From a bacterium (GTDB lineage: Bacteria > Bacillota_I > Bacilli_A > Izemoplasmatales > UBA1188): a stretch of DNA of 64,000 bases. Both the position numbers and the translations under genes were made by a program. The DNA lies in NCBI GenBank assembly GCA_017960565.1, contig JAGCYY010000006.1, forward strand, positions 36,675 to 100,674. The letters run 5' to 3'. Numbering within the stretch: the first letter of the stretch is position 1; each line of letters begins with the position of its first letter. Below the pieces are notes generated by a model. The model saw nothing but the letters and a program-made list of their open reading frames with translations, made no database searches and had not been told where the DNA came from. Below, in pieces: positions 6,001 to 48,186 of this stretch.

Positions 6001-8756
6001 TATTTAACATCTTCTTCATTTACACCATCTACTGAGTAGATATATACACCTTCTAGATTACTACAGCCTTTGAATGCTGAACCGATTCCGTTAGGACCAT
6101 CATTACCTGTTTCAATATTTGAGATAGAATTAGGGATATTGATCTTAACTAGATTTTCATAATCTTTGAATGCATAGCTTTCTACAGTTTCTACAGGTTT
6201 TCCATTATATGTACTTGGAATAGTTACTTCATCTAGATATAAAGCACCTTCACTAGCTGATACAGCATAAGCTGTTTCATTACCATTTAATGCGAACTTG
6301 AATACATCAACCCAACCTGCATATAAAGTTACAGTATCAGTAGCGTCTCTCCAATTGAATCTTGAAGCACCAGTTTGATCTGTATATCTAATACCTTGGC
6401 CATTGATTTCTGAATACCAACCATAGAATGCTTTTAATGGTGAATTAGATTTTGGAACTGGAAGATTGAAAGAAGTACCAAATACTACTGATTGACTTCC
6501 ATCACCTTGTACACCAAGATCTGTATAATTTAAAGCTACATCATAAGTGTTTGCATCCCATCCAGCATATACTGTGATATCACCAGCAGATGTGAATGTT
6601 GTAGCATTGAATTTTTGTCCATCACTAGCTGCAGCTTCAGCACTTTGATACCAACCTCTGAATGTATAACCATTGTATTGTGGAGATGCAAATTGTGGAA
6701 CTTCATCACCAACTACGAAATAGCTAGGTTCAACTTCTGCATCACTATTTGTGGTATTGAATGTCACTGTGTAAACATCAACTTGATATGAGAAATAGTC
6801 GCTTGCACTTGGAGTTTGTGTTCCATAAACTGGAGCTACATAGATTGTGTGTCTACCACCAACGATTACTTTATCAAGTTTATTAGTGTTAGTTACAGTT
6901 TCAGCTTGACCATCGTCAACTTTTACAGAATATTTAGCTGTGCCAATTACTGTATTCCAAGTGATAGTACCGTTAGCATAAGAAATTTGTGTAATACCAT
7001 CTTTTCTAATAGTTACTGCTTCAGATTCAAGTGAGTTGTTTGAAGCATCAGCTGCAACCGCAATTACAGATACGCTGATTTCATCAGCATCAGCAATTTC
7101 TGAACCAGATAATGTATATTTGTTAGTTGTAGCATTATAAGTTTGACCATTAATCTTTACTATATAGCTTGTTGCACCTGGAACTTGATCCCATGTGATA
7201 TCACTATCATATGCTGCAATGTTCTTTGGTGTAGCAAGATCAGTTTTATTTAATGCGCCAGTCTTAGCTTCTGAATAATAACCAACTTTAACAGGAGTTA
7301 CTGAATATTCAAAATTACCATAGAAATTATCAATAACAAGTTCTGTTGTTCTTACGTTGAATGTTTGTGGATTTCCATCCGCAACAGTAATAACTACTTG
7401 ATATGATTCCGCATCTGTAACTGCGTCCCAAGTTAGCTTTTGTCCATCAGATACATAATTAACTGCGCTGATTGCTGCTAAAGCTCTTGTAACATTATAA
7501 ACTTTAGAAGAACTGCTTGCGTAGTTGTTTGCACTTGCTGTTACAGTAAAGTTGATACCATCTTTAGCCATTTCAACATTTGAGAAATCATATGAGTTTT
7601 CATCTCCTAGAGGAACTTCAACTGGTGTTCCACCATTGTCGATTGTTAACTTATAATCTGTTGCATTTTGAACTCTATTCCATGTTAGAACAAATCCTTC
7701 AACGCTGAATTTAGATACTTTTTCAAGACCTTTGTTTACGAAATAAGCTCTACCAACGTTGTTTCCGCTTGAAACTTCTACAACATAGTTACCAGGTAAT
7801 TCGTTAGCGAAGTTATAAGTATCGCTAGTTGTTGAAACGTTCTTTGTGTAGAATGGAGAAGTATCGCCTTCTTTTGTGATGCTAACTGTGTAAGATTTAC
7901 CAACACCTTTAGAATCCCATTCAATCTTGTTTCCTACAACTGATACTAATGGAGTTTCACTTGTAAATACAGCATATAGAACTGTATCTTGAGTTAATTC
8001 CATTCCAGCTTCGAATTTGTAAGTAAGTTTGCTAGAATCTTCATAATCTGATACCCACCAACCAGCAAATGTTTTGCCTGCTGCTTCTACTACTGGGAGG
8101 TTATACATTGTTTTATGGAATGTATAAGTGTCTTCTACTGTCACACCAGCAACACCAGTAACAAATTGAACTACAAATTCATCGTCAGTTGATGTTTCTG
8201 TTCCATAGTTTGCGTATAGTATTGTATCAGCAGTGATTATTTCTTGATTGAAATCAAACACCTTAGTAAATGAACTGTCCTTGTACCAACCGATGAATTT
8301 ATATCCGGCTTTAGTTGGGTCAGCAGGTTTAGTGGCTTTTTGACCATTTTGAACTTGTTGACTTTGAACAGTTGAACCACCATTTGTATTGAAACTAACA
8401 GTGTAATTCACTTTTCTATATAAGGTATATGTTTCGCCTTTATAAGTAAATGAAACTTGATTAACACCAAAATTTACACTTACATTGCTTGTATCACCCT
8501 CGAATGTTAATACAAGATTGCTGCCATCAAAAGAATAGACACCTGTCAAGGTTTCACTTCCAACTGTGAGAGTGAAGGAATTTTCGTCTAGACTAAGTGA
8601 TGCAGTTTGAGAAAGCGCACTAGAAAAGTACTCCCCTACTTCACCTTGATCAACAAATAGAGTGGTCTTTTTCTTACACCCAGCTAATAATAAGATGAGT
8701 GATAAAGACAAAACTACAAGACTGCTTAAAAAGATACTCTTAAATGTTTTCTTCAT
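1..8756 (-). CDS. Giant surface lipoprotein, partial (at least 2918 aa; 3' end beyond window): lipobox signal peptide, Listeria-Bacteroides (Flg_new) repeats, Fn3-like modules, long BspA-type LRR_5 array
   Basis: ATG at 8756 with GGAG RBS (revcomp of 8763-8766) 6 nt upstream. Hand translation gives MKKTFKSIFLSSLVVLSLSLILLLAGCKKK (lipobox LLAGC). The frame at 3239 is in phase with 8756 (difference 5517 = 3x1839). Flg_new-like YTVSFNTNGG...GYKFIGWY lies near 8400. W..V.gA.sY Fn3-like modules lie at about 8000-7000. Dozens of AF.gC.sLtsi.iP..vt.Ig repeats run from about 6230 to 1. No complete minus-strand ORF is listed in the track here, consistent with one ORF that is open to the window edge. 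Confidence 0.85.
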   Translation of the reverse strand, partial: MKKTFKSIFLSSLVVLSLSLILLLAGCKKKTTLFVDQGEVGEYFSSALSQTASLSLDENSFTLTVGSETLTGVYSFDGSNLVLTFEGDTSNVSVNFGVNQVSFTYKGETYTLYRKVNYTVSFNTNGGSTVQSQQVQNGQKATKPADPTKAGYKFIGWYKDSSFTKVFDFNQEIITADTILYANYGTETSTDDEFVVQFVTGVAGVTVEDTYTFHKTMYNLPVVEAAGKTFAGWWVSDYEDSSKLTYKFEAGMELTQDTVLYAVFTSETPLVSVVGNKIEWDSKGVGKSYTVSITKEGDTSPFYTKNVSTTSDTYNFANELPGNYVVEVSSGNNVGRAYFVNKGLEKVSKFSVEGFVLTWNRVQNATDYKLTIDNGGTPVEVPLGDENSYDFSNVEMAKDGINFTVTASANNYASSSSKVYNVTRALAAISAVNYVSDGQKLTWDAVTDAESYQVVITVADGNPQTFNVRTTELVIDNFYGNFEYSVTPVKVGYYSEAKTGALNKTDLATPKNIAAYDSDITWDQVPGATSYIVKINGQTYNATTNKYTLSGSEIADADEISVSVIAVAADASNNSLESEAVTIRKDGITQISYANGTITWNTVIGTAKYSVKVDDGQAETVTNTNKLDKVIVGGRHTIYVAPVYGTQTPSASDYFSYQVDVYTVTFNTTNSDAEVEPSYFVVGDEVPQFASPQYNGYTFRGWYQSAEAAASDGQKFNATTFTSAGDITVYAGWDANTYDVALNYTDLGVQGDGSQSVVFGTSFNLPVPKSNSPLKAFYGWYSEINGQGIRYTDQTGASRFNWRDATDTVTLYAGWVDVFKFALNGNETAYAVSASEGALYLDEVTIPSTYNGKPVETVESYAFKDYENLVKINIPNSISNIETGNDGPNGIGSAFKGCSNLEGVYIYSVDGVNEEDVKYSSFNGSLVFKNADTTEVDLRWVPYGTTKGVYTIPNTVTSIPINTFQGCTGITGVVIPASVTTINEAAFVGAYNIETVEFLLAAEGQTEKALNLGANIFGQNSLITEINFPKRVDQFSADTLPSLTALMQVNFIGEFEGAKFKSVDGVVYSADGTKLIYFPRARDDDFVIPTGVTTVATKAFQEARYLKSITIPGHVTTIEDYAFKTCSRLSAINFQGTATDPRLSIGVEAFYNAGNFSTTFTELVLPANLKTLGKSAFGNMVAISSVRLNSVDENLEFASGAFGSNVSSNPAFYITHLWMSKDVHTFNVAGVFGATRLEVVEVENGNEYFTVIDGVLYNSQVTAILYYPTQFTGAFTLPATITTIGDRVFEEKKMPSITIPNTVTTIGAYAFFNCPNLETITFVDGGTSPLTLGDYAFAGCKNIPTITLPDRVTTIGNRAFEKCTSLNTINIGKNAEFTTETATITIGRNRINFDTIVAFEDCTSLTAINVSAQNAKYLSSDGVLCEYIFDGENNTGFIKVDVCPIAKTGALVLPNTVKVIEYNAFNKQKGVTSISFADGVTSLEIKQYAFRDASGLTSISLPSVIQTIESYTFSNCRSLASITIPKSVTSIKSSAFTQCTGLTAVNFEGDRTSNLVFEDGDYKGRSEASGDSSEEEGAMDPISIFAGCNLIEELVLPEKTTSIGVASFGGMMGLRRVSFPSTLKTIGDWAFVACQNLETVTFANGTTLENIGQGAFRGKSSYNPTKLQSINLPGGQYAIGDGAFKYTSLTNVVVPAGVTEIGKYAFYSDQLLTSVSLPTSLIFVREYAFSNDTALTTVTIANGATLQGVGAYAFKNTGVTSITFPATIYQIGQEAFYNCTDLATVTFALNGSGKSNLAQIGTRAFANTAITSFTFPESVDTEGASINIALGGNVTLVANGGGGSTEELHCPKCDATVTKDDKKCPECGNELHFEEEGLKCPKCGATVKEGQEKCPECGMELKTRNGEEEEGGEGGGSQGGGGSSQFISAPSYLFEGCKKLTTLQLSSSVISIDCMLVNCPVLTTVTVASGNPNLKVDATNPIILNLDGTAIRNVYGKLTGTFNIPDGITQISSYAFAGQTEMTKVIIPNTVVEIGEYAFKDCINLQTVEFASGSTLSTINNYLFKDCKSLTTINLPNSVTSIGNYAFAGCLAMTTLPITANVTTVGDYAFANAGFRTVTVPRTITTFGNYVFAFNPYLTTVALAEGSTCGPNMFANNKALTSVTIANGTTYLGEGMFKNCVNLETITIPYSVTRLGGTATTANDVNNPAGYVFDGCTKLATVNFETGAEGATGLLTIGSYAFRNCTSLTTFTIPDSVQNLGEHIFDSCTSLESCTLSNTGIYVPQYMFYNCTSLKSISMPESVIRIGGTHTTTFGTNTVSFAFYGCTSLETVEFSDDITGIGTNSFFGCTSLEEVTLPSKLQRVLASSFENCTGLKTVTFTQEAALSSLGNYLFKGCSSLETVNGFKGNTSGSLGYETFNGCSSLTSLTIPTNTLMTGNGVFMNCTSLTTIDFSSTRLYQIGSDAFNGCTNLTTVLLPATFPSSVSTNAFTFAATSFMNCTSLEEITLPFLPSGKVFNFGNRSFYGSGLRTLHLPSSVAKYNINNTTPQATSYGIDYAAFNNCPNLVLTIDEQNDRYVLVDNMFIVRINDWQSKQILPMATPKIVGVVNASGDIVIPDGYQIEQYAFSGCENVTSITLPASLTTIPSRAFSGYKGGTIIIPEGVTSIASFAFEGVNVESIVLPSTITNIDSYAFQGCTNLKSITLPEGVTTIGGYLFQGCTSLETVNMGSNITSIGDYAFQGCTSLTSFTIPETVTSIGNFAFEGTGLTAIVIPETVTTIGSFYDGTDTYQMNNKGYVFANCVNLTTVTYNASSISSKHMFDGCTSLTTITFASPLTQIDGYAFYNCSSLTSFTFAEGLKSIGAYAFSGTGLTQVTLPQSLTRLCDGAFANCTSLTSVTFGNGLKYLGSANLTGLEAT
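2983..3241 (-). other. Embedded double zinc-ribbon module (2 x CxxC-X10-CxxC) flanked by Gly/Glu/Ser linkers, inside the giant LRR protein
   Basis: Hand translation of revcomp 3241-2983: GGGGSTEELHCPKCDATVTKDDKKCPECGNELHFEEEGLKCPKCGATVKEGQEKCPECGMELKTRNGEEEEGGEGGGSQGGGGSS. Locally GC-rich, which also produces the spurious Pro-rich plus-strand ORF 2977-3363. Confidence 0.8.
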
Positions 8757-8988
8757 ATTTGTCTCCTTTTTTTCTTCCGTAAATACTAAATCCTTGTTAT
8801 ATTATATTTTAATATAATAGGGGCATCCACGAATAATTTTTTATAACAATATACTATACATTGCTTTAAAAATAAATAGGAAAATTAAAAAAAACAAATT
8901 TTTTTATCTTTTTGACGTTTTCTTTTTAATTTTTTTTCAATAATATTGTAATTTTTGCACATTATGAATTATTATGTGAAAAAAATAA

Positions 8989-36340: not shown

Positions 36341-36889
36341 ATGAAAAAAAGTGATGCAAGAGTACGTTATACGAAACATATTCTAAAAGAATCTTTACTT
36401 AAACTATTAAGAGAAAGACCAGTCAACAAAATCACAGTTAAAGAAGTGTGTGAGCTAGCAGAATTAAATCGTGCAACATTCTATACACATTATAGCGACT
36501 GTTTTGCACTACTAGAGGCTATCGAACAAGAACTTATTGATGCGTTTGGAGAGTCGTTAAAGTATGTAAATTTCTTTGATGTCACAGCACTTATCGAAGC
36601 AATCTATATTATGGTAGAACAGCATGAAGACGCGTGTCGTGTTTTAGTTTTTAATGGAGCAAGTCCTTCTGTTCTTAGTCGTATGATAGATCTTGCTCAC
36701 GATTCAAGCATCAATTACTGGAAAGAGCATCTAAACAACGCTACTGAAATAGACTTAGAAATGCTTTATACTCATCTTTCAAATGGTCTTATGAACATTG
36801 TTGTTGGGGGTTATGATAAATACCCACGTGAAGATGTTATTAAATTTGTAAACAAGATTGTTAGTGGCACGTTGTCGCTTTATATGTAA
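36341..36889 (+). CDS. TetR/AcrR-family regulator (DhaS-like subgroup)
   Basis: 182 aa. The N-terminal HTH ITVKEVCELAELNRATFYTHYSDCFALLE is typical of the dihydroxyacetone-kinase-regulator-like TetR subgroup. Confidence 0.8.
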   Translation: MKKSDARVRYTKHILKESLLKLLRERPVNKITVKEVCELAELNRATFYTHYSDCFALLEAIEQELIDAFGESLKYVNFFDVTALIEAIYIMVEQHEDACRVLVFNGASPSVLSRMIDLAHDSSINYWKEHLNNATEIDLEMLYTHLSNGLMNIVVGGYDKYPREDVIKFVNKIVSGTLSLYM

Positions 36890-36945: not shown

Positions 36946-36973
36946 CTTTTGTTTCTTGGTAATATATTATAAA

Positions 36974-37023
36974 TTACAGCTGTAAATATACGGTGGTGTA
37001 TATTGTTATATCGCCGCCTATTT
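36974..37023. repeat. 50-bp direct repeat, copy A (left boundary of the RM/recombinase cassette)
   Basis: TTACAGCTGTAAATATACGGTGGTGTATATTGTTATA is identical to copy B. The next 13 nt have 2 mismatches. Contains the dyads TTACAG|CTGTAA and AATATAC-N6-GTATATT. Confidence 0.9.
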
Positions 37024-37031
37024 TCTGCATT

Positions 37032-39248
37032 TTATTTGATTAATTCATATTCATACAATTTATCTTTAATGTATTTATCAAAATAGGCGTCTGTTTTTTT
37101 TCTAAGTGCTTCTAGATAACTATTTAATTCAGGGTGATTATAGACCTTATTATCATTTTCGTCTTTATAGTATGTATTCAAATCGTCTGCTATTTGATAC
37201 AATCCATAAGTATATTTAGAATTATACTCAGGAACTTTTTTTGCTTCACCAATCAGTCGGTTAAATAGATCTAACAATTGCCTCTCATCTTTATTCAAAG
37301 ATAGGGTGGCTAATTTTTTTGAAGCAACTGTGTTTTCATCAAAGCATAACTCGTTTTTAATAATCGTAGGTTTGCCGTCAACGAGTAACTCTTGGCTTTT
37401 ACATTTGTTATAATAATCTAAACATCCAAAAATAAAAGCACGTTTTAATAGTTCATTATCTTTTTCGTAGTCAAATCCCCTGTCTGTGCTGCAGCATATA
37501 AATTCGTTTTCCTTCCAATCCCTACAAAACATTAGATAATGCTTGATTGAAATAATAATCATTTTTTTATAATAATTATTCAATGTAACATAAAATCCGT
37601 GATTATCTGAAAATCTTAGTCGAACTAAGTTAAAATTTAGGTTTGGATTAGAAATCCCAAATCCTCTTCCAACAAAATACCCCAATATTTCATTATCATA
37701 ATATGATCCTATTTCGTTTGGTTCAAAATTGCCATCTGTTTTACAAGAATATTTTATTTTAGCGTGTTCTCGTATTTTTTTATCAAATATTTTGGTAATT
37801 TCATTTGTGACTCTAGTAGCCGACATATCATCGGAATAGATTGCTAATTCGTTATTTATTTCTAAAGCCTCTAAAGATATTTCATCTATATTTTCATTCA
37901 CATTTTCCCATAGTATACATGCAATCGCTGAAGGCGATGCATGAAAATATTTTTTATTAAACAAGAAGCCTTTTCGAAACCTCTTATTAATTAATTTATC
38001 TATTTTCCAGTACTTAATTGGACTGAATACAATATAACTGTCGTTTTCTTGCCTTAAATAATATTTAAAAGCTGACCATATAAATCTATTAGCAAGCTCG
38101 TTTGTTTTAGATATGCCGTTAATTTTCATTTGTTCCAAAACATATGAATTTATTTTTTTTCCTTCTGATTTTATACCAGTCATTCCACTTGTATCGTCAC
38201 GATATGGCGGATTTTCATATAATATTATTGTACACTTCTCATCGTCAAGATATTTTTTTATAATAGGGTTATCCAAATATTCCTTTGACATAGCGTCAGC
38301 ACATTTTACAAAGCCTCTATCATAAGTATCTTCCATTTCAATAGGGGGAATAATTGCTCTTACTTTTTCTCCTAACCGTTCACATAGAACTTTATACTCA
38401 TAATATTCATATGTAGATAAAATACAGTGTGATAATTGTGCTTCAGAAAGAATAGATTCTAAATTTCCCGTACCAGCACATCTATCTAAAATAATATAAT
38501 CATTCCCAATCGGAACCCTTGAAATTGCTATTTCCACCAACTCCTTTGCTTTGATGCAATAAGGAATAGGAGTATAGAAAGCGCCAAGATCTTTTTTATT
38601 TAATCTATCATTTAATTTATCCATTAGATATTTAAATTTTTCATTGCTTTTTTTCTTATATGGATTAATTAAACTTTTAAAGTGTCTAGGTTCGCGTATT
38701 TCACCCAAAGTTTTGCTTGAGGTATCATCATCGCCTAAAAAATCGCCTTTTGTAGCCTTTGGGTTTTCTCGATAATATCTTTCTGCCCATCCAACAATAC
38801 AATTTTCATCCAAATCAATGGGTGTGTATTTTTCTTCTCTAAGTAGTGATAAAAGATTATATGCCCCTTCTTGGTAACTATAATCAATCTTGTTTGGGGT
38901 AGACTTTGCAATAAAGGCGTCATTATTTTTGCTTGCTGCACCATAATATACTTTATGTATTTCTTCAAAATAGTCTTTCGAATTAAATACATATGCACAC
39001 CAATCATTTAAACTTATCAAAATGATGTTATAGGGAATAGATTCGCCTTTTATTCTCATTTTTGAAAGATATTTTATTGTTTGGAATAAGACTTTGTTGA
39101 TATTAGAAATGTTTAATTTGAATTCTAAAATATTTCCTTTCCATACGCCGTCCGTATTATCTACTAAAACAGGATTGTTTCTCCAATCAATAGCGAATTT
39201 ATCAAAAAAATCTATTTGTCCCTCTTTTTCTGTCAAATATACTTTCAT
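37032..39248 (-). CDS. Single-chain Type IIG/IIL-like restriction-modification candidate: N-terminal PD-(D/E)xK-type motif plus gamma-class N6-adenine DNA methyltransferase plus C-terminal putative TRD
   Basis: Start ATG 39248 (MKVYLTEKE) with GGAG RBS. TDGVWKGNILEFK = D-X8-E-X-K (39117-39152). GAFYTP, ILDRCAGTGN (motif I) and NPPY (38202-38213, verified by hand translation). About 380 aa follow NPPY. Confidence 0.7.
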   Translation of the reverse strand: MKVYLTEKEGQIDFFDKFAIDWRNNPVLVDNTDGVWKGNILEFKLNISNINKVLFQTIKYLSKMRIKGESIPYNIILISLNDWCAYVFNSKDYFEEIHKVYYGAASKNNDAFIAKSTPNKIDYSYQEGAYNLLSLLREEKYTPIDLDENCIVGWAERYYRENPKATKGDFLGDDDTSSKTLGEIREPRHFKSLINPYKKKSNEKFKYLMDKLNDRLNKKDLGAFYTPIPYCIKAKELVEIAISRVPIGNDYIILDRCAGTGNLESILSEAQLSHCILSTYEYYEYKVLCERLGEKVRAIIPPIEMEDTYDRGFVKCADAMSKEYLDNPIIKKYLDDEKCTIILYENPPYRDDTSGMTGIKSEGKKINSYVLEQMKINGISKTNELANRFIWSAFKYYLRQENDSYIVFSPIKYWKIDKLINKRFRKGFLFNKKYFHASPSAIACILWENVNENIDEISLEALEINNELAIYSDDMSATRVTNEITKIFDKKIREHAKIKYSCKTDGNFEPNEIGSYYDNEILGYFVGRGFGISNPNLNFNLVRLRFSDNHGFYVTLNNYYKKMIIISIKHYLMFCRDWKENEFICCSTDRGFDYEKDNELLKRAFIFGCLDYYNKCKSQELLVDGKPTIIKNELCFDENTVASKKLATLSLNKDERQLLDLFNRLIGEAKKVPEYNSKYTYGLYQIADDLNTYYKDENDNKVYNHPELNSYLEALRKKTDAYFDKYIKDKLYEYELIK

Positions 39249-39515
39249 ACACTTGCTCCTTTTCAATATAAAAATTCGAAGTCTCAAATTGTATACATTT
39301 TGATTCCTCTTAAATTCTTCGAAAATCTAAATAAATTATATTATATTTTTCTCAAAATTGCCACACATTAGCAAATAAAACACACTTTTTTTCACACTTT
39401 ATTAAATCTAAAAAATCATACATTGTTATACTTGACTGATACCTTTTTTTATTTATAAGATAATTTGATATAATCTTCGCTTTACTGATGTATATATAAA
39501 GTGGAGGTGATCATT

Positions 39516-40118
39516 ATGATTTATGCATACATACGTGTATCAACTAAACATCAAAATATCGATAGACAATATTTAGAGATTAAAGAATTTGGAGTAGATG
39601 ATAAATATATCTACATTGATAAAGAATCAGGAAAAGATTTTGATAGAACCAATTATCAAAAGCTAATTAGAAAAATAAAAAAAGACGACCTACTGATTGT
39701 TAAGTCAATAGATCGTCTAGGTAGGAATTATAAGATGATACTTGATGAGTGGTCTTATATAACTAAGATTAAAGAGGCTGATATTAAAGTATTAGATATG
39801 CCTTTACTTGATACTAGAATAGAAGGTAAAAATTTGGTTGGTAAATTCATATCAGATATAGTACTTCAGGTATTATCATTTGTTGCTGAAAATGAAAGGA
39901 ACAATATTAGAGAAAGACAAGCTGAAGGAATAAGAATTGCAAAAGAAAAAGGTGTTAAGTTCGGTAGACCTAAAGCTACTCTTCCACCTAACACCAATGA
40001 AATATTAAATAGATATATAAACCACGAAATAACAAATACTGAAGCTGCTTCTATTATTGGAGTATCTAGAGGTACTTTTTTTAGATTAGTTAAAGAAAGA
40101 AATAAGACATTCGTATAA
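39516..40118 (+). CDS. Small serine recombinase (resolvase/invertase family)
   Basis: Start ATG 39516 after a GGAGGTGA RBS. MIYAYIRVSTKHQNIDRQ (catalytic Ser), SIDRLGRN, ENERNNIRERQAEGI, and C-terminal HTH AASIIGVSRGTFFRL. Confidence 0.88.
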   Translation: MIYAYIRVSTKHQNIDRQYLEIKEFGVDDKYIYIDKESGKDFDRTNYQKLIRKIKKDDLLIVKSIDRLGRNYKMILDEWSYITKIKEADIKVLDMPLLDTRIEGKNLVGKFISDIVLQVLSFVAENERNNIRERQAEGIRIAKEKGVKFGRPKATLPPNTNEILNRYINHEITNTEAASIIGVSRGTFFRLVKERNKTFV

Positions 40119-40258
40119 GCGTTATTCAAATATGCTCATTTATGATGCTATATTTCTGAATAAACAATATATAACCAAATAATAAAAACGCTAGTACTTT
40201 GGCAAAAGTCATCGTATTAGCGTTATTGTTTTGATGTAGTAAATGTTTTTAATATAAT

Positions 40259-40308
40259 TTACAGCTGTAAATATACGGTGGTGTATATTGTTATACCACC
40301 GCCTATTT
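40259..40308. repeat. 50-bp direct repeat, copy B (right boundary of the RM/recombinase cassette)
   Basis: Same 37-nt core as 36974-37010, then CCACCGCCTATTT against TCGCCGCCTATTT in copy A. Same orientation, 3285 bp from copy A. Confidence 0.9.
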
Positions 40309-40316
40309 ACTTTAGT

Positions 40317-43300
40317 TTAATAGTCAATGCTGATAGATGTCTCTAAGGTTCCTTCATTTGAAACAAATGAACCAACAGTAATTGTAACTCCAACATCTGT
40401 ACCATCATACCATTTTAATGAAGATATGATATCGCCTTCTTTAAATAAATCTTTATCTTTTACAACGTAATTATAATCTTTATCGATATTATTGCTTCCA
40501 TCAGCACATATTAAGTCGATCAATTTAAATCTAGCATCACCATTATTATATTTGGTTATTTCATTTATCTCTGAAATAATCCATAATTCGGTTCTACTTT
40601 TTAGTGTTGCGTTAATATGCCATACCATAATGCCAGGCACAGATGGTAATCCACATTCACGATTGCTCTTTAGTGCGTTAACTCCTGTTGGAGTATACAA
40701 AGCAATCATATAATATTCTTCGAAATATGATCCACCATTTGTTTTAGAAATAATAATTGTATCACCTGTTGCTTCAAAAGAACTTAATGTTGTTTCATAA
40801 TCCATATTGACTACTACTGTTGGAGATGTCCAACCTAAAATTGCTTTTGAATAAGGGTCGTGGTCACCTTGGTTAGCGTGCATCATCGCAAATCTTCCAA
40901 CACCGCCTGTAACACCGCCATCAGCAAAATCATAATAATCCGCAAGTCCAAGAGCGTGTCCTGTTTCATGAATTAAAGCTTCACAGTTGATATTAACTCG
41001 GAGTGAATTAACTTCATCAATCTCTAAAGAATCTAGATATTCTATATCAACAGGATCATCAAAGAATTCTATGCTCATCCAAAGATATCCATGAAGACTA
41101 GTATCATCAAACTCCTCATTGCTTTCTATATTATAATAATATGCCCACCACATATTTGATTGTTCAAAATCAAATGTGTCATAATATGGTGCTAAATATA
41201 TTAAATATATACAATCAATGTTCCAGTCATTGTTTTGATCATATAATGAATAATCAATTAAATTATCATAATGCTTAACTGCATCTACTAAATATTTTTG
41301 CTCATCAACTCCAGATTTTCCTGAATATAAATTATATGCTGTATTTGTCTCATAGATATCTAGTACAGTTGCGTTTAAATTTAATTTACCATAAGATGCT
41401 TTTTGATAATATTCTTTTAATGAATACCAACCAGTGTTACCTTTAGTATCATTAAATGCTGTCTCTATTTTTTCTTTTATTTTTGTCTTACTACCATATT
41501 TTTCATAATTTGTGTTAGTAAATCCAATTGGAATAACTAAGATATTAACATCTCCTTCAGATGGTAATGATGGTTTTAAATAAATATCATCACCAAGTTC
41601 ATCTAAAGATTGATATTTAACATTTTCTCTTATTTCTGGCAAATAGAACAATATATCAATATTTTTAGTATATTCATTATAAGATATAGCGATATTTGCC
41701 ATACCATTTTTAGATGAATCATAATTAGATGCTTCTACGCTATATTCACCCTTTTCTAACAAGCTATAACTGCCATCTTCATCACGGAAATGAACAACCA
41801 AATCAGAAATCGCATCATTTAAACTTATTCCTCTTTCTGATATTGATTTATTTGAATAACTTAATAATAGTCCATATTCTAAATATATAGAACTTTGTTT
41901 TGTAAGCCTTGCTTGTAGTGAATCGGGACCGATTGAAATTGCGACATTCTTTAAATTGCAATCGACATTTGAGCTTAATTTTTCACACATCTGATTATAA
42001 AAAGCGACTTCGTCTTTTGAAACAAATAGTTCAAAATTATTGCCCGATCTATCGGTTAAGATTACAGTTTCAGCAGTAGTTAAATTAACTTTATTAAAAG
42101 AAACACCCTCTAAATTAACAATATCATTCCTATCATAAATATTAATTCTAGATAAATCTTGAATATCCCTATTTTTCATTGTAAGAGAGCCGAGTATACT
42201 GTAATCTTTTTTATCATCTACAATGATTCTATGAAGTCCATTAAGAATATCAATTTTTCCATAGATATTAATACACTGACCAACTTTTGCACCATATGGG
42301 AAACCAATTCCTTTGAATAATACCATGATAGCATTCTCTTGAGAAGTATCAGTTATCCATACCATATAGTCATTGTTAGGGGCAGGCATATAAGCTTTTA
42401 CATATCCTGATAAATTAGAAACTTCTTCACCTTGAGATTTGTTATAACAATCGAGAATATAATCAGCTGGGAAACCATTTTCAGGTTCTCTTTCATATTC
42501 AGGTAGTGAAAGAGAAGTTATGCCTGTTTTAGTTAACCATAAATTATATACTAAATTATCATTGTAATCACCATCTTCAATGCTTGATGTTGCCTTAACA
42601 AATAGATTACCACTGATTATTTCTAGTTCGAAAGAATTAAAAGATTCTCTTTTCCAAACCTTTTGAATAATGCCATCTTTTGTACCCCAGTGCTCGCTAT
42701 CTTGATCATAGAAAAAGCTTTTTCCTACTTTGTTTAATAACTCATCTTTGGCTTTATATTTATTTTCATCAATTTGTTCAAAATCTTTTTCATCAATAAC
42801 ATATTGATACTTACGCATATAACATTGATTCATCTCAATAAAAATATCAGAATCATCAATTGTTGAATACCAATTATTATTCCTTTTGTTTAAATATATC
42901 ATTTCACTAGGGTCTTTAATTTCCCCATTATCCGGTTCATAATATATTTCTACAGTATATGAATAATAATCACCGGTTTCTTCATCTTTTTCATTATATA
43001 TTTTCTTCCAATATCTAATATCTTCATATTTAGAAAATACTTGGTTATTTAATAATACATCATCACTGTACTGAGTTAATTCAGCAGTGTATGATGAAAT
43101 ATCCATTTGATTTATATAATAATTTAGACTGTTTTCTTTAGGAAAAAATTCGTTTTTCCATTCATCTTCAGTGCCCTTATAGTTTGGATGATACTTTATA
43201 TATAATTCATATGGTGAAAGTTTATCGTTATCATCCTCTCTATAAGCTTTAATGCCGCTATCAATTTCATCAATGAACACATTACCATTATCACCTATTT

Positions 43301-43514
43301 TAAACACATGGTTTTCTTTTGCCAAAGGAAAAGTTAATGTGTGTCCATCACTAAAAGTGATTGTATAAATATCATTTTCTTCATCGCTCGAAGTCTTATT
43401 AACTTCTACTATTTCTAATTCGTTATTGCCATTATTTTTACATCCAACTAAGTTAAATGTGAAAATCAAGGCAATAAAAGCTAAAAATACTACTACAAAA
43501 AACATTTTTTTCAT
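40317..43514 (-). CDS. Large lipoprotein with C-terminal M6/InhA-like zinc metalloprotease domain
   Basis: Start ATG 43514 (MKKMFFVVVFLAFIALIFTFNLVGC lipobox) with GGTGA RBS. HETGHALGLADYYD (HETGH at 40956-40970, verified by hand translation) matches the HE.GH.LGL.D.Y pattern of M6-family domains. The N-terminal about 630 aa have no motif I recognise. Confidence 0.7.
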   Translation of the reverse strand: MKKMFFVVVFLAFIALIFTFNLVGCKNNGNNELEIVEVNKTSSDEENDIYTITFSDGHTLTFPLAKENHVFKIGDNGNVFIDEIDSGIKAYREDDNDKLSPYELYIKYHPNYKGTEDEWKNEFFPKENSLNYYINQMDISSYTAELTQYSDDVLLNNQVFSKYEDIRYWKKIYNEKDEETGDYYSYTVEIYYEPDNGEIKDPSEMIYLNKRNNNWYSTIDDSDIFIEMNQCYMRKYQYVIDEKDFEQIDENKYKAKDELLNKVGKSFFYDQDSEHWGTKDGIIQKVWKRESFNSFELEIISGNLFVKATSSIEDGDYNDNLVYNLWLTKTGITSLSLPEYEREPENGFPADYILDCYNKSQGEEVSNLSGYVKAYMPAPNNDYMVWITDTSQENAIMVLFKGIGFPYGAKVGQCINIYGKIDILNGLHRIIVDDKKDYSILGSLTMKNRDIQDLSRINIYDRNDIVNLEGVSFNKVNLTTAETVILTDRSGNNFELFVSKDEVAFYNQMCEKLSSNVDCNLKNVAISIGPDSLQARLTKQSSIYLEYGLLLSYSNKSISERGISLNDAISDLVVHFRDEDGSYSLLEKGEYSVEASNYDSSKNGMANIAISYNEYTKNIDILFYLPEIRENVKYQSLDELGDDIYLKPSLPSEGDVNILVIPIGFTNTNYEKYGSKTKIKEKIETAFNDTKGNTGWYSLKEYYQKASYGKLNLNATVLDIYETNTAYNLYSGKSGVDEQKYLVDAVKHYDNLIDYSLYDQNNDWNIDCIYLIYLAPYYDTFDFEQSNMWWAYYYNIESNEEFDDTSLHGYLWMSIEFFDDPVDIEYLDSLEIDEVNSLRVNINCEALIHETGHALGLADYYDFADGGVTGGVGRFAMMHANQGDHDPYSKAILGWTSPTVVVNMDYETTLSSFEATGDTIIISKTNGGSYFEEYYMIALYTPTGVNALKSNRECGLPSVPGIMVWHINATLKSRTELWIISEINEITKYNNGDARFKLIDLICADGSNNIDKDYNYVVKDKDLFKEGDIISSLKWYDGTDVGVTITVGSFVSNEGTLETSISIDY

Positions 43515-46947: not shown

Positions 46948-47035
46948 TGGTGCGGATGACAAGACTTGAACTTGCACAGACAAAATATCTATTAGAACCT
47001 GAATCTAACGCGTTTACCAATTACGCCACATCCGC
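46948..47035 (-). tRNA. tRNA-Leu(CAG), class II, CCA encoded
   Basis: Revcomp GCGGATG-TG-GCG..CGC-G-TTAGA-TTCAGGT-TCTAA-long variable arm-GCAAG-TTCAAGT-CTTGT-CATCCGC-ACCA. Anticodon loop TT-CAG-GT. Confidence 0.9.
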
Positions 47036-47043
47036 ATATATTC

Positions 47044-47052
47044 ATTATATCA
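47044..47052 (-). promoter_or_regulatory. Extended -10 element (TGATATAAT) driving tRNA-Leu(CAG) independently
   Basis: Revcomp of 47044-47052 is TGATATAAT, ending 8 nt upstream of the mature tRNA 5' end and downstream of the 12-tRNA operon terminator. Confidence 0.55.
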
Positions 47053-47077
47053 TATAGGAAAAGAATAGCTCTGAAAT

Positions 47078-47103
47078 CAAAAAAAAAAAAACAGCGAACT
47101 GTT
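47078..47103 (-). terminator. Terminator of the 12-tRNA operon
   Basis: The minus strand reads AACAG-ttcg-CTGTT followed by 13 T (A13 at 47079-47091 on the plus strand). Confidence 0.6.
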
Positions 47104-47112
47104 AGAGTCTTA

Positions 47113-47188
47113 TGGTGGCTCAGGCCAGAATCGAACTGGCGACACATGGATTTTCAGTCCATTGCTCTACCAACTGAGCTACCGAGCC
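47113..47188 (-). tRNA. tRNA-Phe(GAA)
   Basis: Revcomp GGCTCGGTAGCTCAGTTGGTAGAGCAATGGACTGAAAATCCATGTGTCGCCAGTTCGATTCTGGCCTGAGCCACCA. Confidence 0.93.
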
Positions 47189-47197
47189 ATTCATAAG

Positions 47198-47274
47198 TGG
47201 CGGTCCCGACGAGACTTGAACTCGCGATCTCCAGTGTGACAGACTGACATGTTAACCAACTACACCACAGGACC
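47198..47274 (-). tRNA. tRNA-Asp(GTC)
   Basis: Revcomp GGTCCTGTGGTGTAGTTGGTTAACATGTCAGTCTGTCACACTGGAGATCGCGAGTTCAAGTCTCGTCGGGACCGCCA. Confidence 0.92.
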
Positions 47275-47285
47275 GTATATTTATT

Positions 47286-47361
<76 letters not shown>

Positions 47362-47374
47362 ATATTAATAAGAT

Positions 47375-47467
47375 TGGCGGAGAAAGAGGGATTCGAACCC
47401 CCGCGGGACTTTCATCCCCTGTCGGTTTTCAAGACCGATCCCTTCAACCAGGCTTGGGTATTTCTCC
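47375..47467 (-). tRNA. tRNA-Ser(TGA), class II
   Basis: Revcomp GGAGAAATACCCAAGCCTGGTTGAAGGGATCGGTCTTGAAAACCGACAGGGG...GGTTCGAATCCCTCTTTCTCCGCCA. Confidence 0.9.
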
Positions 47468-47480
47468 GTAATTATTAAAT

Positions 47481-47557
47481 TGGTGGACCCAGAAGGACTC
47501 GAACCTACGACCACCCGGTTATGAGCCGGAAGCTCTAACCAACTGAGCTATGGGTCC
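47481..47557 (-). tRNA. tRNA with CAT anticodon, most likely tRNA-Ile2 (lysidine-modified)
   Basis: Revcomp GGACCCATAGCTCAGTTGGTTAGAGCTTCCGGCTCATAACCGGGTGGTCGTAGGTTCGAGTCCTTCTGGGTCCACCA. It resembles the Bacillus tRNA-Ile(CAU) body and occupies the Ile slot of the conserved Ala-Met-Ile-Ser-fMet-Asp-Phe order. Confidence 0.75.
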
Positions 47558-47564
47558 ATAAATA

Positions 47565-47641
47565 TGGTAGCGGCGGTGGGGATCGAACCTACAACCTTGC
47601 GGGTATGAACCGCACGCTCTAGCCAATTGAGCTACGCCGCC
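47565..47641 (-). tRNA. Elongator tRNA-Met(CAT)
   Basis: Revcomp GGCGGCGTAGCTCAATTGGCTAGAGCGTGCGGTTCATACCCGCAAGGTTGTAGGTTCGATCCCCACCGCCGCTACCA. Confidence 0.85.
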
Positions 47642-47665
47642 AGGTTATCTTTATAAAAAAAATAA

Positions 47666-47741
47666 TGGTGGAGCATAACGGGATCGAACCGATGACCTCC
47701 TGCTTGCAAGGCAGGCGCTCTCCCAGCTGAGCTAATGCCCC
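47666..47741 (-). tRNA. tRNA-Ala(TGC)
   Basis: Revcomp GGGGCATTAGCTCAGCTGGGAGAGCGCCTGCCTTGCAAGCAGGAGGTCATCGGTTCGATCCCGTTATGCTCCACCA. G3:U70 is present. Confidence 0.93.
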
Positions 47742-47748
47742 GATTGTT

Positions 47749-47835
47749 TGGTACCCAAGGCCGGACTTGAACCGGCACGTCATTGCTGACAATGGATTTT
47801 AAATCCATCGCGTCTACCTATTCCGCCACTCAGGC
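47749..47835 (-). tRNA. tRNA-Leu(TAA), class II
   Basis: Revcomp GCCTGAGTGGCGGAATAGGTAGACGCGATGGATTTAAAATCCATTGTCAGCAATGACGTGCCGGTTCAAGTCCGGCCTTGGGTACCA. Confidence 0.9.
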
Positions 47836-47845
47836 ATCTAGAGAC

Positions 47846-47921
47846 TGGTGACTCGCTGGAGATTCGAACTCCAGACCCCTTGATTAAAAGTCAAGTGCTC
47901 TACCGGCTGAGCTAGCGAGTC
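47846..47921 (-). tRNA. tRNA-Lys(TTT)
   Basis: Revcomp GACTCGCTAGCTCAGCCGGTAGAGCACTTGACTTTTAATCAAGGGGTCTGGAGTTCGAATCTCCAGCGAGTCACCA. Confidence 0.93.
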
Positions 47922-47929
47922 TTAAGAGG

Positions 47930-48006
47930 TGGTGCCGAAAGTAGGAATTGAACCCACAACCTACTGATTACAAGTCAGTTGCTCTGCCAGATTGCGCTAT
48001 TTCGGC
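47930..48006 (-). tRNA. tRNA-Thr(TGT)
   Basis: Revcomp GCCGAAATAGCGCAATCTGGCAGAGCAACTGACTTGTAATCAGTAGGTTGTGGGTTCAATTCCTACTTTCGGCACCA. Confidence 0.9.
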
Positions 48007-48017
48007 ACTTATTCTCA

Positions 48018-48093
48018 TGGTGGGAGATGACGGGCTCGAACCGCCGACCCTCTGCTTGTAAGGCAGATGCTCTCCCAGCTGAGCTAATCTCCC
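48018..48093 (-). tRNA. tRNA-Val(TAC)
   Basis: Revcomp GGGAGATTAGCTCAGCTGGGAGAGCATCTGCCTTACAAGCAGAGGGTCGGCGGTTCGAGCCCGTCATCTCCCACCA. Confidence 0.93.
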
Positions 48094-48109
48094 ATATATT
48101 TGCTCGGTT

Positions 48110-48186
48110 TGGTGGGCCAGGATGGACTTGAACCATCGACCTCTGCCTTATCAGAGCAGCGCTCTAACCAACTGAGCTATTGGCCC
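48110..48186 (-). tRNA. tRNA-Ile(GAT)
   Basis: Revcomp GGGCCAATAGCTCAGTTGGTTAGAGCGCTGCTCTGATAAGGCAGAGGTCGATGGTTCAAGTCCATCCTGGCCCACCA. Confidence 0.92.

What the first reader, a model, noticed from the sequence alone, without database searches (positions are those of the whole stretch)
36974..40308. RM gene plus small serine recombinase bracketed by 50-bp direct repeats with nested dyads: candidate excisable defence cassette
Seen: 36974-37023 and 40259-40308 are direct repeats in the same orientation, 3285 bp apart. They share 37 identical nt (TTACAGCTGTAAATATACGGTGGTGTATATTGTTATA), then 13 nt with 2 mismatches. Each copy carries two dyads, TTACAG|CTGTAA and AATATAC-N6-GTATATT. Exactly two genes lie between them, divergently transcribed. 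One is a 738-aa nuclease-motif/N6-adenine methyltransferase fusion. The other is a 200-aa resolvase/invertase-type serine recombinase (YIRVST). A 100-nt sample of the RM gene is 21% GC, against 30% in a nearby core gene and 47% in the adjacent module. Established: small serine recombinases bind dyad-symmetric sites and delete DNA between directly repeated sites. Inference: the repeats are the recombination sites of a minimal, self-excising RM cassette. I do not recognise this arrangement as a described element type. Alternative: the repeat is a dispersed terminator or REP-like element, since CGGTGGT...ACCACCG forms a hairpin followed by T-rich sequence in copy B.
Basis: partly seen in the sequence, partly recalled or inferred. 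Interest (0 to 1): 0.7.

Follow-up and report, generated by a model that had tools for sequence, protein, structure and literature searches.

The report
Switchable restriction-enzyme cassette flanked by repeats
The repeats are real and bracket a small imported cassette, but the recombinase inside most likely flips a 125-bp promoter to turn the neighbouring restriction-modification gene on and off, and the flanking repeats look like a duplicated piece of the insertion site rather than excision sites.

Summary
Observation confirmed. The repeats are 56 nt with 53 identities (37-nt exact core), at 36968-37023 and 40253-40308. They are the only two copies in 64 kb. They bracket exactly a 738-aa gene and a 200-aa serine recombinase.

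Interpretation only partly supported. The 738-aa protein matches no Pfam, NCBIfam or PADLOC model. Its AlphaFold model resembles the single-chain Type IIG/IIL enzymes BpuSI and MmeI.

The recombinase's real sites lie between the two genes. They are two 28-bp dyads centred at 39293/39294 and 39418/39419, flanking a 125-bp segment that carries a promoter-like element. Related loci carry this segment in either orientation, between flanks that stay in direct orientation. There the same recombinase-plus-switch module sits beside Type I, II, IIG and III restriction-modification systems. It is therefore a phase-variation switch, ON in this window.

The flanking repeats form a terminator-like hairpin. 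They contain only one recombinase half-site. Their sequence is unrelated to the repeats flanking two sister cassettes (L005, L109). Solitary relatives of the gene that have no recombinase also carry flanking repeats made of host sequence.

Best reading: insertion with long target duplication, as described by Furuta et al. 2010. No empty site or circle was found, so self-excision is unproven and disfavoured.

The parts
36968..37023 (.). Direct repeat copy A. It is a terminator-like hairpin and ends 8 nt from the RM gene's stop codon.
   Evidence: Hairpin -17.9 kcal/mol on the + strand and only -10.8 on the - strand, because of 2 substitutions. Flagged as terminator-like.
37032..39248 (-). 738-aa predicted single-chain restriction-modification enzyme (Type IIG/IIL-like). 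N-terminal D33...E42-x-K44 nuclease motif, D255xxGxG261 and N346PPY349 N6-adenine methyltransferase motifs, and a C-terminal domain.
   Evidence: No Pfam, NCBIfam, PADLOC or PDB sequence hit. More than 3,500 full-length homologues and 280 clusters at E<=1e-30. Invariant residues. AlphaFold model pLDDT 83.7. Foldseek top hits BpuSI 1.8e-8 and MmeI 1.9e-7, then M.TaqI.
39280..39307 (.). RM-proximal crossover site, AGTCTCAAATTGTA|TACATTTTGATTCC. It is a dyad centred between 39293 and 39294.
   Evidence: Highest dyad score in the whole window (24.5; background mean -17, sd 7), and it was not used to build the matrix. The same site sits about 223 nt upstream of the recombinase start in most related loci.
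39294..39418 (.). 125-bp invertible segment (inverton) carrying a promoter-like element, with a -10 TATAAT at 39340-39335 on the minus strand. In this window it points at the RM gene (ON).
   Evidence: The segment is inverted in L095, L099-L103, L109 and L121 relative to the window. The inner half-sites swap between the two orientation classes. L097 compared with L095, L099, L100, L102, L103, L109 and L115 shows both flanks in direct orientation with the middle left unaligned in that orientation. A conserved extended -10 (TGATATAAT) lies inside the segment. Promoter scan. Only about 27 nt plus the ribosome-binding site lie between the site and the RM start codon, which leaves no room for another promoter.
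39405..39432 (.). Recombinase-proximal crossover site, AATCTAAAAAATCA|TACATTGTTATACT, centred between 39418 and 39419.
   Evidence: Same-strain scaffolds from two samples (L011, L012; L225 is another extract of the same scaffold as L011) start exactly at 39418. That is the first base shared by the two predicted orientations.
39516..40118 (+). 200-aa small serine recombinase, best read as the DNA invertase of the adjacent switch.
   Evidence: PF00239 at E=3e-27. Best NCBIfam hit is the Mpi invertase family, but below its cutoff. PDB: Sin 1.4e-33, Tn3 and gamma-delta resolvases about 1e-21, DNA-invertase chains 4m6f/3uj3 (Gin, from my memory) about 1e-14. More than 120 clusters at 82-92% identity.
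40104..40252 (.). The last 5 codons of the recombinase plus a 3' spacer with its own hairpin. This stretch is not shared with the sister cassette L005.
   Evidence: Homology to L005 and to all other module loci ends at 40096-40105. No significant match elsewhere.
40253..40308 (.). Direct repeat copy B. It is the better hairpin, lies 8 nt from the stop codon of the M6-type metalloprotease gene (40317-43514, -), and is probably that gene's native terminator.
   Evidence: -22.6 kcal/mol (+) and -19.6 (-), z about -4. Terminator-like.

Best explanation
A 3.2-kb horizontally acquired cassette sits between the convergent tetR-like and metalloprotease genes. It has three working parts.
(i) A single-chain Type IIG/IIL-like restriction-modification gene.
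(ii) A 125-bp invertible promoter segment bounded by two 28-bp dyad sites.
(iii) A small serine recombinase that binds those dyads and flips the segment.

The RM gene is therefore expressed in only part of the population (phase variation). In this window the switch is ON.

The 56-nt direct repeats are not the recombinase's substrate. They are two copies of the terminator hairpin of the insertion site, duplicated when the cassette arrived. This is the pattern called 'insertion with long target duplication' for RM genes.

What is shown: the repeats, the dyad sites, the two orientations among homologous loci, and the association of the module with many RM types.
What is inferred: recombinase-catalysed flipping in this organism, promoter activity, nuclease and methylase activity, and the origin of the repeats by target duplication.
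For: Invertase and switch.
- The dyad scan singles out 39293 and 39418 (24.5 and 19.8; the next best is 12.8).
- In most related loci two such dyads lie 125-126 bp apart, about 223 and 97 nt upstream of the recombinase start.
- The inner half-sites are exchanged exactly. L097's left inner half TACGTTTTGATACC is the reverse complement of L100's right inner half GGTATCAAAACGTA.
- L097 compared with seven other loci shows both flanks direct (about 258 bp and 680 bp, 87-92% identical), while the intervening ~122 bp is not aligned in direct orientation. Its inner half-sites are the swapped set. Direct reverse-strand alignment of the segment was shown for L095, L099-L103, L109 and L121 against the window.
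- A conserved extended -10 lies inside the segment.
- Scaffolds from two samples begin exactly at the predicted crossover, 39418.

Cargo. The genes divergent from the module in other loci are a D12 methylase with an AlwI-type endonuclease, EcoRI-type methylases, Type III Mod and Res, an N6 methylase with an S subunit, Eco57I-like with ResIII, and a C5 methylase.

RM identity of the 738-aa protein.

Repeats as duplicated target.
- Their sequences are specific to each context.
- They abut the cassette ends. Homology to L005 stops at the RM stop codon.
- The repeat is a terminator-type hairpin placed directly after the protease stop codon.
- Solitary homologues are bracketed by host sequence: 88 nt of the 5' coding part of a flavoprotein-like gene (my reading of the translated sequence; not run against a domain library) in L035, a tRNA-Arg 3' end in L025, and a hairpin in L089.
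- Flanking repeats were found at 3 of 65 family genes against 1 of 228 shifted control intervals.

The phenomenon is documented in PMC2853133.
Against: - No empty site (a single repeat copy between the tetR-like and protease genes) was found, so target duplication is not demonstrated for this locus.
- Both orientations were never seen in one sample. The only within-population hint is where two scaffolds start.
- The repeat contains TATATTGTTATAC, a 12/13 match to the window's own outer half-site. This is among the best half-sites in 64 kb (rank 5 and 14; P about 0.003-0.009 for a 56-nt stretch). That is unexplained under pure target duplication.
- By sequence the recombinase is nearer to Sin and gamma-delta resolvases than to the DNA-invertase chains in the PDB. 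Enzymes of that group can delete between direct sites.
- 125 bp is short for a serine-recombinase inversion loop (my own knowledge).
- The published screen for long target duplication excluded RM units linked to recombinase genes.
Confidence: 0.6

Rival explanations
1. The two direct repeats are the recombinase's recombination sites. The recombinase deletes and re-integrates the 3.3-kb cassette, making it a self-excising RM element, possibly in addition to flipping the promoter.
For: - Three cassettes that carry this recombinase as their only recombinase are bracketed by direct repeats: the window, L005 and L109.
- The window's repeat holds one high-scoring half-site in the same orientation in both copies.
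- The recombinase's closest solved relatives are resolvases (Sin, gamma-delta) that act on direct sites.
- The central dinucleotide of the true sites is self-complementary, so the sites themselves do not dictate inversion over deletion (this step is my inference).
Against: - The repeats lack the second half-site (left-half score -1.0). As dyads they score 9.9 and 8.4, within the range of the window's chance hits (next best non-site 12.8), against 24.5 and 19.8 for the true sites.
- The repeats of L005 and L109 have no significant half-site. They share no sequence with the window's repeat, although the DNA-binding regions of the recombinases are near-identical.
- Most module loci have no flanking repeats.
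- Homologues without a recombinase have the same kind of repeats.
- A 2-bp serine-recombinase crossover does not by itself create 40-56-nt duplications (my own knowledge).
- No empty site was seen in any assembly of the species.
Confidence: 0.12
2. The repeats are attachment sites left by site-specific integration carried out by an integrase encoded elsewhere. On this view the cassette is a non-autonomous island mobilised in trans, or the remnant of a larger island.
For: - The L109 repeat starts at the 3' end of tRNA-Thr.
- The L025 repeat is the 3' end of tRNA-Arg.
- The L005 cassette lies about 150 nt downstream of two tRNA genes.
- Tyrosine integrases lie near some family members: L007, L030, L053/L054, L083 and L089.
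- PMC2853133 lists site-specific recombination as one of three classes of repeats that flank RM genes.
Against: - The window's site is not at a tRNA gene, and no integrase lies within 10 kb on either side.
- The L035 repeat is 88 nt of coding sequence, and the insert supplies a new start codon. That is atypical for att sites.
Confidence: 0.15
3. The repeat is a dispersed terminator or REP-like element. On this view two copies flank the cassette by chance, or the cassette landed between two pre-existing copies.
For: - Both copies are strong hairpins flagged as terminator-like. They sit after convergent gene ends.
- Only 64 kb of the genome could be searched.
- PMC2853133 lists 'chance insertion between repeated sequences' as a class.
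Against: - There are only two copies in 64 kb even with 3 mismatches allowed. Both lie exactly at the cassette ends, each 8 nt from a stop codon.
- None occurs in about 2 Mb of related loci except in contigs of the same locus.
- Independent cassettes show the same bracketing with other sequences.
Confidence: 0.08

Closest known systems
Promoter invertons driven by small serine invertases (Hin/hix in Salmonella; Mpi and the capsule promoters of Bacteroides fragilis)
   Same: A small serine recombinase is encoded next to a short segment bounded by two dyad sites of about 26-28 bp. The segment carries a promoter. Both orientations are found. The best NCBIfam hit is the Mpi family.
   Different: The NCBIfam score is far below the Mpi cutoff (83.7 against 272). 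By sequence the enzyme is nearer to Sin and to Tn3/gamma-delta resolvases than to the DNA-invertase chains in the PDB. The segment is only 125 bp. The central dinucleotide is self-complementary. The regulated genes are RM systems rather than surface structures. No enhancer was sought.
Phase-variable restriction-modification systems (phasevarions; hsdS shufflons; invertons near RM or orphan methylases in gut bacteria, PMC11741434, PMC7672463)
   Same: RM activity is switched by site-specific DNA inversion, and a recombinase gene is adjacent.
   Different: The described cases mostly change hsdS coding sequence or use simple-sequence repeats. Here a whole RM gene is switched ON/OFF by promoter inversion. 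The same invertase-plus-inverton module is coupled to Type I, II, IIG and III systems. I found no paper that describes this module, but my literature search was limited.
[quoted passage not shown] 2000, cited from memory; Furuta, Abe and Kobayashi 2010, PMC2853133)
   Same: A small RM unit under 20 kb is bracketed by direct repeats over 30 bp that are specific to each insertion site. The published repeats run to about 46-65 bp in the table rows I read, and sometimes overlap gene ends or tRNA genes. Repeats of this kind occur at solitary members of this RM family.
   Different: No empty-site comparison is available here. The cassette also carries a recombinase gene, a situation the published screen deliberately excluded.
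Type IIG/IIL single-chain enzymes (BpuSI, MmeI)
   Same: The domain order is the same: N-terminal PD-(D/E)xK-type motif, gamma-class N6-adenine methylase, then a C-terminal domain. These are the best structural matches.
   Different: There is no detectable sequence similarity to them or to any Pfam or NCBIfam model. It is a separate family of about 280 clusters at 50% identity with E<=1e-30.
Tn3, gamma-delta and Sin res-site resolution systems
   Same: A small serine recombinase of the same superfamily. The divergent gene arrangement with the sites in the intergenic region recalls tnpA-res-tnpR.
   Different: There is no transposase and no three-subsite res. The two sites flank an invertible 125-bp segment instead of lying on two replicon copies. 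The flanking direct repeats are not res-like.

Membership tests
Small serine recombinase (resolvase/invertase, PF00239) | N-terminal catalytic domain with the serine nucleophile | tested here: met
   PF00239 at E=3e-27 over residues 7-152 of the 205-aa ORF. Motif YAYIRVSTKHQ.
Small serine recombinase (resolvase/invertase, PF00239) | C-terminal helix-turn-helix DNA-binding domain, total length about 180-210 aa | tested here: met
   200 aa. It aligns end to end with gamma-delta resolvase (query 2-196, chain 3-183) and with Sin.
Mpi-family master invertase (NCBIfam NF009949) | Score above the curated equivalog cutoff | tested here: not met
   83.7 bits against a cutoff of 272. It is the best hit, but the protein is not a member.
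Promoter inverton with cognate invertase | Two recombinase-type dyad sites flanking a short segment next to the recombinase gene | tested here: met
   Dyads at 39293 and 39418 are the two top scores in 64 kb. Equivalent pairs lie 125-126 bp apart in most related loci.
Promoter inverton with cognate invertase | Both orientations observed between conserved flanks | tested here: met
   Met among homologous loci. 4 loci share the window's orientation and 11 have the opposite one. The inner half-sites swap exactly. Both flanks stay direct at 87-92% identity.
Promoter inverton with cognate invertase | Both orientations coexist in one population | tested here: inconclusive
   Scaffolds from two samples start exactly at the crossover base 39418. 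No contig with the flipped orientation of this locus was recovered. Raw reads were not available.
Promoter inverton with cognate invertase | A promoter lies inside the segment | tested here: inconclusive
   A consensus-level match (GTGGCA-18-TATAAT) points at the RM gene. A conserved TGATATAAT is present in related segments. There is no room for a promoter outside the segment. No transcript data.
Self-excising cassette / res-type resolution between direct repeats | Each direct repeat contains a complete recombinase crossover dyad | tested here: not met
   One half scores 10.9 or 9.4 and the other scores -1.0.
Self-excising cassette / res-type resolution between direct repeats | Site sequence conserved among cassettes with near-identical recombinases | tested here: not met
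   The window, L005 and L109 repeats are unrelated. Half-site P is 0.39-0.87 for L005 and L109.
Self-excising cassette / res-type resolution between direct repeats | Excision products exist (empty site, circle junction) | tested here: inconclusive
   None was seen among 8 contigs carrying the TetR-like protein, 6 carrying the deaminase and 6 carrying the recombinase. Assemblies cannot reveal rare events.
[quoted passage not shown] | The insert contains R and M functions, is under 20 kb, and has a repeat over 30 bp | tested here: met
   A predicted R-M fusion gene. The insert is 3.2 kb. The repeat is 56 nt with 53 identities.
[quoted passage not shown] | The repeat aligns to a single copy at the empty site of a related genome | not testable with these tools
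   No syntenic relative was found. Protease homologues at 57-58% identity lie in other contexts.
[quoted passage not shown] | No other mobility gene in the unit | tested here: not met
   A serine recombinase is present, although its sites lie elsewhere.
Type IIG/IIL restriction-modification enzyme | Gamma-class N6-adenine methylase motifs in the order SAM-binding then NPPY | tested here: met
   D255, G259 and G261 are invariant, as is N346-P-P-Y349. Fold matches to M.TaqI, BpuSI and MmeI.
Type IIG/IIL restriction-modification enzyme | N-terminal PD-(D/E)xK nuclease | tested here: inconclusive
Type IIG/IIL restriction-modification enzyme | Match to curated MmeI or Eco57I family models | tested here: not met
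   No family was reported in Pfam even with the E-value limit raised to 10, nor in NCBIfam or PADLOC at a limit of 0.1.
Dispersed REP-like or terminator repeat | Many copies at unrelated intergenic sites | tested here: not met
   Two copies in 64 kb with up to 3 mismatches allowed. The rest of the genome could not be searched.

The most novel reading that the evidence does not exclude
The invertase-plus-inverton unit may be a portable 'phase-variation module' that travels together with, and exchanges, RM cargo of any type. The same small serine recombinase may also catalyse integration and excision of the whole cassette at pseudo-sites such as the half-site inside the window's repeat. That would make it a minimal self-mobile, self-regulating defence element with one recombinase doing two jobs.
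Probability: 0.1. Interest if true: 0.75.

Novelty: new variant of a known kind. Interest (0 to 1): 0.45.

Why it matters
The result reassigns the recombinase from 'excisionase' to 'ON/OFF switch' for a restriction enzyme.

One conserved serine-invertase and inverton module (over 120 protein clusters at 82-92% identity) sits in front of Type I, II, IIG and III RM systems in gut and rumen bacteria. Population-level switching of whole RM systems by promoter inversion may therefore be common in these communities. That would affect phage resistance, gene flow and methylome heterogeneity.

The work also defines a sizeable family of Type IIG-like enzymes that has no Pfam, NCBIfam or PADLOC model.

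Finally, it adds Firmicutes-type examples to the unexplained 'long target duplication' mode of RM gene insertion. One case (L035) preserves the interrupted host gene by supplying a new start codon.

Tried and rejected
1. An inverted-repeat search in the intergenic region found nothing convincing. The sites are imperfect dyads, not long inverted repeats. They emerged only from comparison with related loci.

2. Contig breaks at 39109-39118 looked like a second breakpoint. L227 starts with an Illumina adapter, and L001 ends in 33 nt of unknown sequence, so I treat these breaks as artefact or unexplained.

3. L226 seemed to carry different cargo. It is the same gene with a +1 frameshift in a T8 run.

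4. By eye, GTATCAAA-like motifs in the L005 and L109 repeats looked like half-sites. The matrix test rejected this (P 0.39-0.87).

5. The empty-site search failed. I tried exact look-ups of the TetR-like protein, the deaminase, the recombinase and the RM protein, and the contexts of protease homologues.

6. The 146-nt spacer 40104-40249 has no relatives.

7. The L131 329-nt repeat belongs to an unrelated element carrying fragments of integrase and large serine recombinase genes.

8. Plasmid and phage collections hold only distant recombinase relatives.

9. Rfam finds nothing in the cassette.

11. The genome-wide scan for the 37-mer was not run.

Full report
**1. Observation.** The two repeats exist as described. 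The 37-mer TTACAGCTGTAAATATACGGTGGTGTATATTGTTATA occurs at 36974-37010 and 40259-40295. It occurs nowhere else in the 64-kb window on either strand, even with 3 mismatches allowed, and 0 matches are expected by chance. The following 13 nt differ at two positions. My own extension gives 56 nt with 53 identities, 36968-37023 / 40253-40308. The repeat tool gives 70 nt at 89%. Between the repeats lie exactly two real genes, divergently transcribed: a 738-aa ORF (37032-39248, minus strand) and a 200-aa serine recombinase (39516-40118, plus strand). The flanks are a TetR-like gene (36341-36889, +) and an M6-type metalloprotease gene (40317-43514, -). The compositional argument is weak. The cassette is 28.5% GC against a window mean of 32%, and the protease gene is 29.2%. 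The 47-49% GC region is a cluster of 13 tRNA genes.

**2. The 738-aa gene.** It matches nothing in Pfam (even with the E-value limit at 10), NCBIfam, PADLOC or PDB sequences. It nevertheless belongs to a large full-length family. There are more than 3,500 hits in the 90%-clustered database and 280 clusters at 50% identity with E<=1e-30. The family is spread over Firmicutes, Bacteroidota, Actinobacteria, Saccharibacteria, Elusimicrobiota and streptococci. Invariant residues include D33 and K44 (E42 is conserved in at least 90% of sequences), D255/G259/G261, and N346-P-P-Y349. These correspond to a PD-(D/E)xK-type motif followed by gamma-class N6-adenine methylase motifs. An AlphaFold model (pLDDT 83.7) finds BpuSI (Type IIG, 1.8e-8) and MmeI (Type IIL, 1.9e-7) as best PDB matches, then M.TaqI and Type I M subunits. 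I therefore accept 'RM gene' as a well-supported prediction of a separate Type IIG-like family. Nuclease activity is inferred.

**3. What the recombinase does.**
- The recombinase has an unusually large set of very close relatives: over 120 clusters at 82-92% identity.
- I fetched loci for them and aligned them to the window. In L095, L099-L103, L109 and L121 the stretch 39418-40097 aligns directly, but 39286-39433 aligns in reverse orientation immediately upstream.
- A multiple alignment of the regions upstream of the recombinase shows a conserved outer half-site, TACATTTTTATAT. It is joined at a fixed point to one of two alternative inner halves.
- I built a half-site matrix from these recombinase-proximal sites and scanned the whole window. 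The top dyad is at 39293 (24.5), which was not in the training set. The second is 39418 (19.8). The next best is 12.8, against a background mean of -17 and sd of 7.
- In most related loci two such dyads lie 125-126 bp apart, about 223 and 97 nt upstream of the recombinase start. The inner halves are exchanged exactly between the two orientation classes. For example, L097's left inner half TACGTTTTGATACC is the reverse complement of L100's right inner half GGTATCAAAACGTA.
- L097 aligns to L095, L099, L100, L102, L103, L109 and L115 in direct orientation on both flanks (about 258 bp and 680 bp, 87-92% identical). The ~122 bp between them does not align in that orientation, and L097's inner half-sites are the swapped set.
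- Oriented alike, the segments share an extended -10 (TGATATAAT) that reads toward one end. In the window that end faces the RM gene. A GTGGCA-18-TATAAT match lies at 39364-39335 on the minus strand.
- Only about 27 nt plus the ribosome-binding site separate the left site from the RM start codon, so no other promoter fits. The window is therefore in the ON state. Of the 15 segments I oriented and aligned, 11 are OFF and 4 are ON.
- Scaffolds of the same strain from two samples start exactly at 39418. That is the first base common to both predicted orientations, as expected if both coexist. This is the only within-population hint.

**4. What the module regulates elsewhere.** The genes divergent from the module in other loci are RM systems of many types:
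- a D12 methylase with an AlwI-type endonuclease (L095);
- EcoRI-type methylases (L096, L097);
- Type III Mod and Res (L099), and Type III-type Mod methylases (L113, L117, L118);
- an HSDR_N fusion (L100);
- an N6 methylase with an S subunit (L109);
- an Eco57I-like protein with ResIII (L107);
- a C5 methylase (L121);
- D12 methylases (L102, L104).

Several human-gut loci share a 1.7-kb module while the RM cargo differs. The module comprises a leader, the inverton, the invertase and a 97-aa HTH ORF. This supports both the switch function and the RM nature of the 738-aa gene. A 70%-identical homologue (L007) instead has a tyrosine integrase and 39-nt inverted repeats spaced 125 nt apart upstream. 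That is a second type of switch on the same gene family.

**5. What the direct repeats are.**
Copy B, next to the protease stop codon, is stable on both strands (-22.6 and -19.6 kcal/mol). Copy A is weakened on the minus strand by its two substitutions (-10.8). Both copies are flagged as terminator-like.
- The sister cassette L005 lies after two tRNA genes in another genome. Its RM protein is 77% identical and its recombinase 86% identical. It is bracketed by repeats of 39-47 nt with a quite different sequence.
- Cassette homology between the window and L005 ends exactly at the RM stop codon and about 5 codons before the recombinase stop.
- L109 carries a 6-kb island bracketed by a perfect 54-nt repeat that begins at the 3' end of tRNA-Thr. 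The island holds a Type I-like RM system, the module, a GGDEF gene and the HTH ORF.
- The three repeat pairs share no sequence. Only the window's repeat contains a good half-site: TATATTGTTATAC, 12/13 to the window's own outer half, with P about 0.003-0.009. The partner half is absent. The L005 and L109 repeats have no significant half-site.
- About 20 other module loci have no flanking repeat of 24 nt or more, apart from L109.
- Solitary members of the RM family with no recombinase are tightly bracketed by long repeats of host sequence. L035 has 88 nt (87/88 identical) of the 5' coding region of a flavoprotein-like gene (my reading of the translation). The inserted DNA supplies a new start codon for the downstream copy. 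L025 has the 3' end of tRNA-Arg. L089 has a 52-nt hairpin. L041 has about 130 nt.
- Such bracketing was found at 3 of 65 family genes against 1 of 228 shifted control intervals.
- This is the pattern published as 'insertion with long target duplication' of RM genes. In that paper repeats over 30 bp, specific to each site, flank RM units of all types (PMC2853133).

**6. Limits.**
- I could not find an empty site. All reachable assemblies of this species carry the cassette. The nearest protease homologues (57-58% identity) are not syntenic.
- The rest of the genome could not be scanned for the 37-mer.
- Target duplication is therefore the best-supported reading (about 0.55-0.6), not a demonstrated one.
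- The alternatives are integration by an integrase acting in trans (0.15), recombinase-mediated excision at the repeats (0.12), and a dispersed terminator repeat (0.08).
- The half-site inside the window's repeat remains unexplained.

**7. Comparison and novelty.** The region works like a Hin- or Mpi-type promoter inverton, but it is not an Mpi equivalog (83.7 bits against a cutoff of 272). By sequence the recombinase is nearer to Sin and gamma-delta resolvases. Phase-variable RM systems are well known, through simple-sequence repeats and hsdS shuffling. Invertons near RM genes in gut bacteria have been catalogued (PMC7672463, PMC11741434). RM units flanked by long direct repeats are also known. 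Three things appear new at the level of a variant:
- one conserved serine-invertase and inverton module coupled to RM systems of every type;
- its travel with the RM cargo as a repeat-bracketed unit;
- an unmodelled Type IIG-like family as cargo.

My literature search was limited to open-access text.

**8. Verdict.** Interest is moderate (0.45).

Noticed in passing
window 38153-38160 (T8 run; A8 in gene sense, near codons 363-366): Contig L226, from the same locus in another sample, has one extra T here. This splits the RM gene into 376-aa and 365-aa ORFs. It could be slipped-strand inactivation, which would be a second layer of switching, or an assembly error.
   Followed up: partly
window 39109-39119: Contigs L001 and L002 end here. 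L001 continues into 33 nt of unknown terminator-like sequence (AAGACCGCTCTGTTCAGGGCGGTTTTTTTTAGA), exactly at the E-F-K codons. L227 begins with an Illumina adapter and then window base 39109. This is probably an artefact, but the L001 junction is unexplained.
   Followed up: partly
window 36999-37011 and 40284-40296: Both repeat copies contain TATATTGTTATA(T/C), a near-match to the recombinase's own outer half-site at 39419-39431. With one mismatch or fewer to TATATTGTTATAC, the only hits in 64 kb are these three plus-strand positions and one at 8841 on the minus strand.
   Followed up: partly
L007 4698-6001: A 70%-identical homologue of the RM gene has a divergent tyrosine integrase. It also has 39-nt inverted repeats (5753-5791 / 5917-5955) enclosing 125 nt just upstream of the gene. 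This looks like an independent inverton with a different recombinase class on the same RM family.
   Followed up: no
L035 3531-3618 and 5986-6073: An 88-nt repeat (87/88 identical) brackets a solitary RM homologue. It is the 5' coding part of a flavoprotein-like gene (my reading of the translation). The upstream copy is cut short by a stop codon. The downstream copy continues into the full gene, with a new start codon and ribosome-binding site supplied by the insert.
   Followed up: partly
L041 5791-5918 and 8693-8819: A repeat of about 130 nt flanks the RM homologue in Limosilactobacillus portuensis. It contains a G9/G10 homopolymer tract.
   Followed up: no
L095, L099-L104, L109, L121 (about 5522-7240 in locus coordinates): These human-gut loci share a 1.7-kb block while the RM cargo on one side and the genes on the other side differ. 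The block comprises a leader, the inverton, the invertase and a 97-aa HTH ORF. It looks like a hot spot for RM exchange.
   Followed up: partly
window 46948-48186: A cluster of 13 tRNA genes on the minus strand.
   Followed up: yes
L009 727-1377: The 83%-identical RM homologue P0004 has no recombinase. Instead a 216-aa gene with no Pfam match abuts its start (stop codon directly followed by the RM start codon). Two tRNA-like repeats lie downstream.
   Followed up: no
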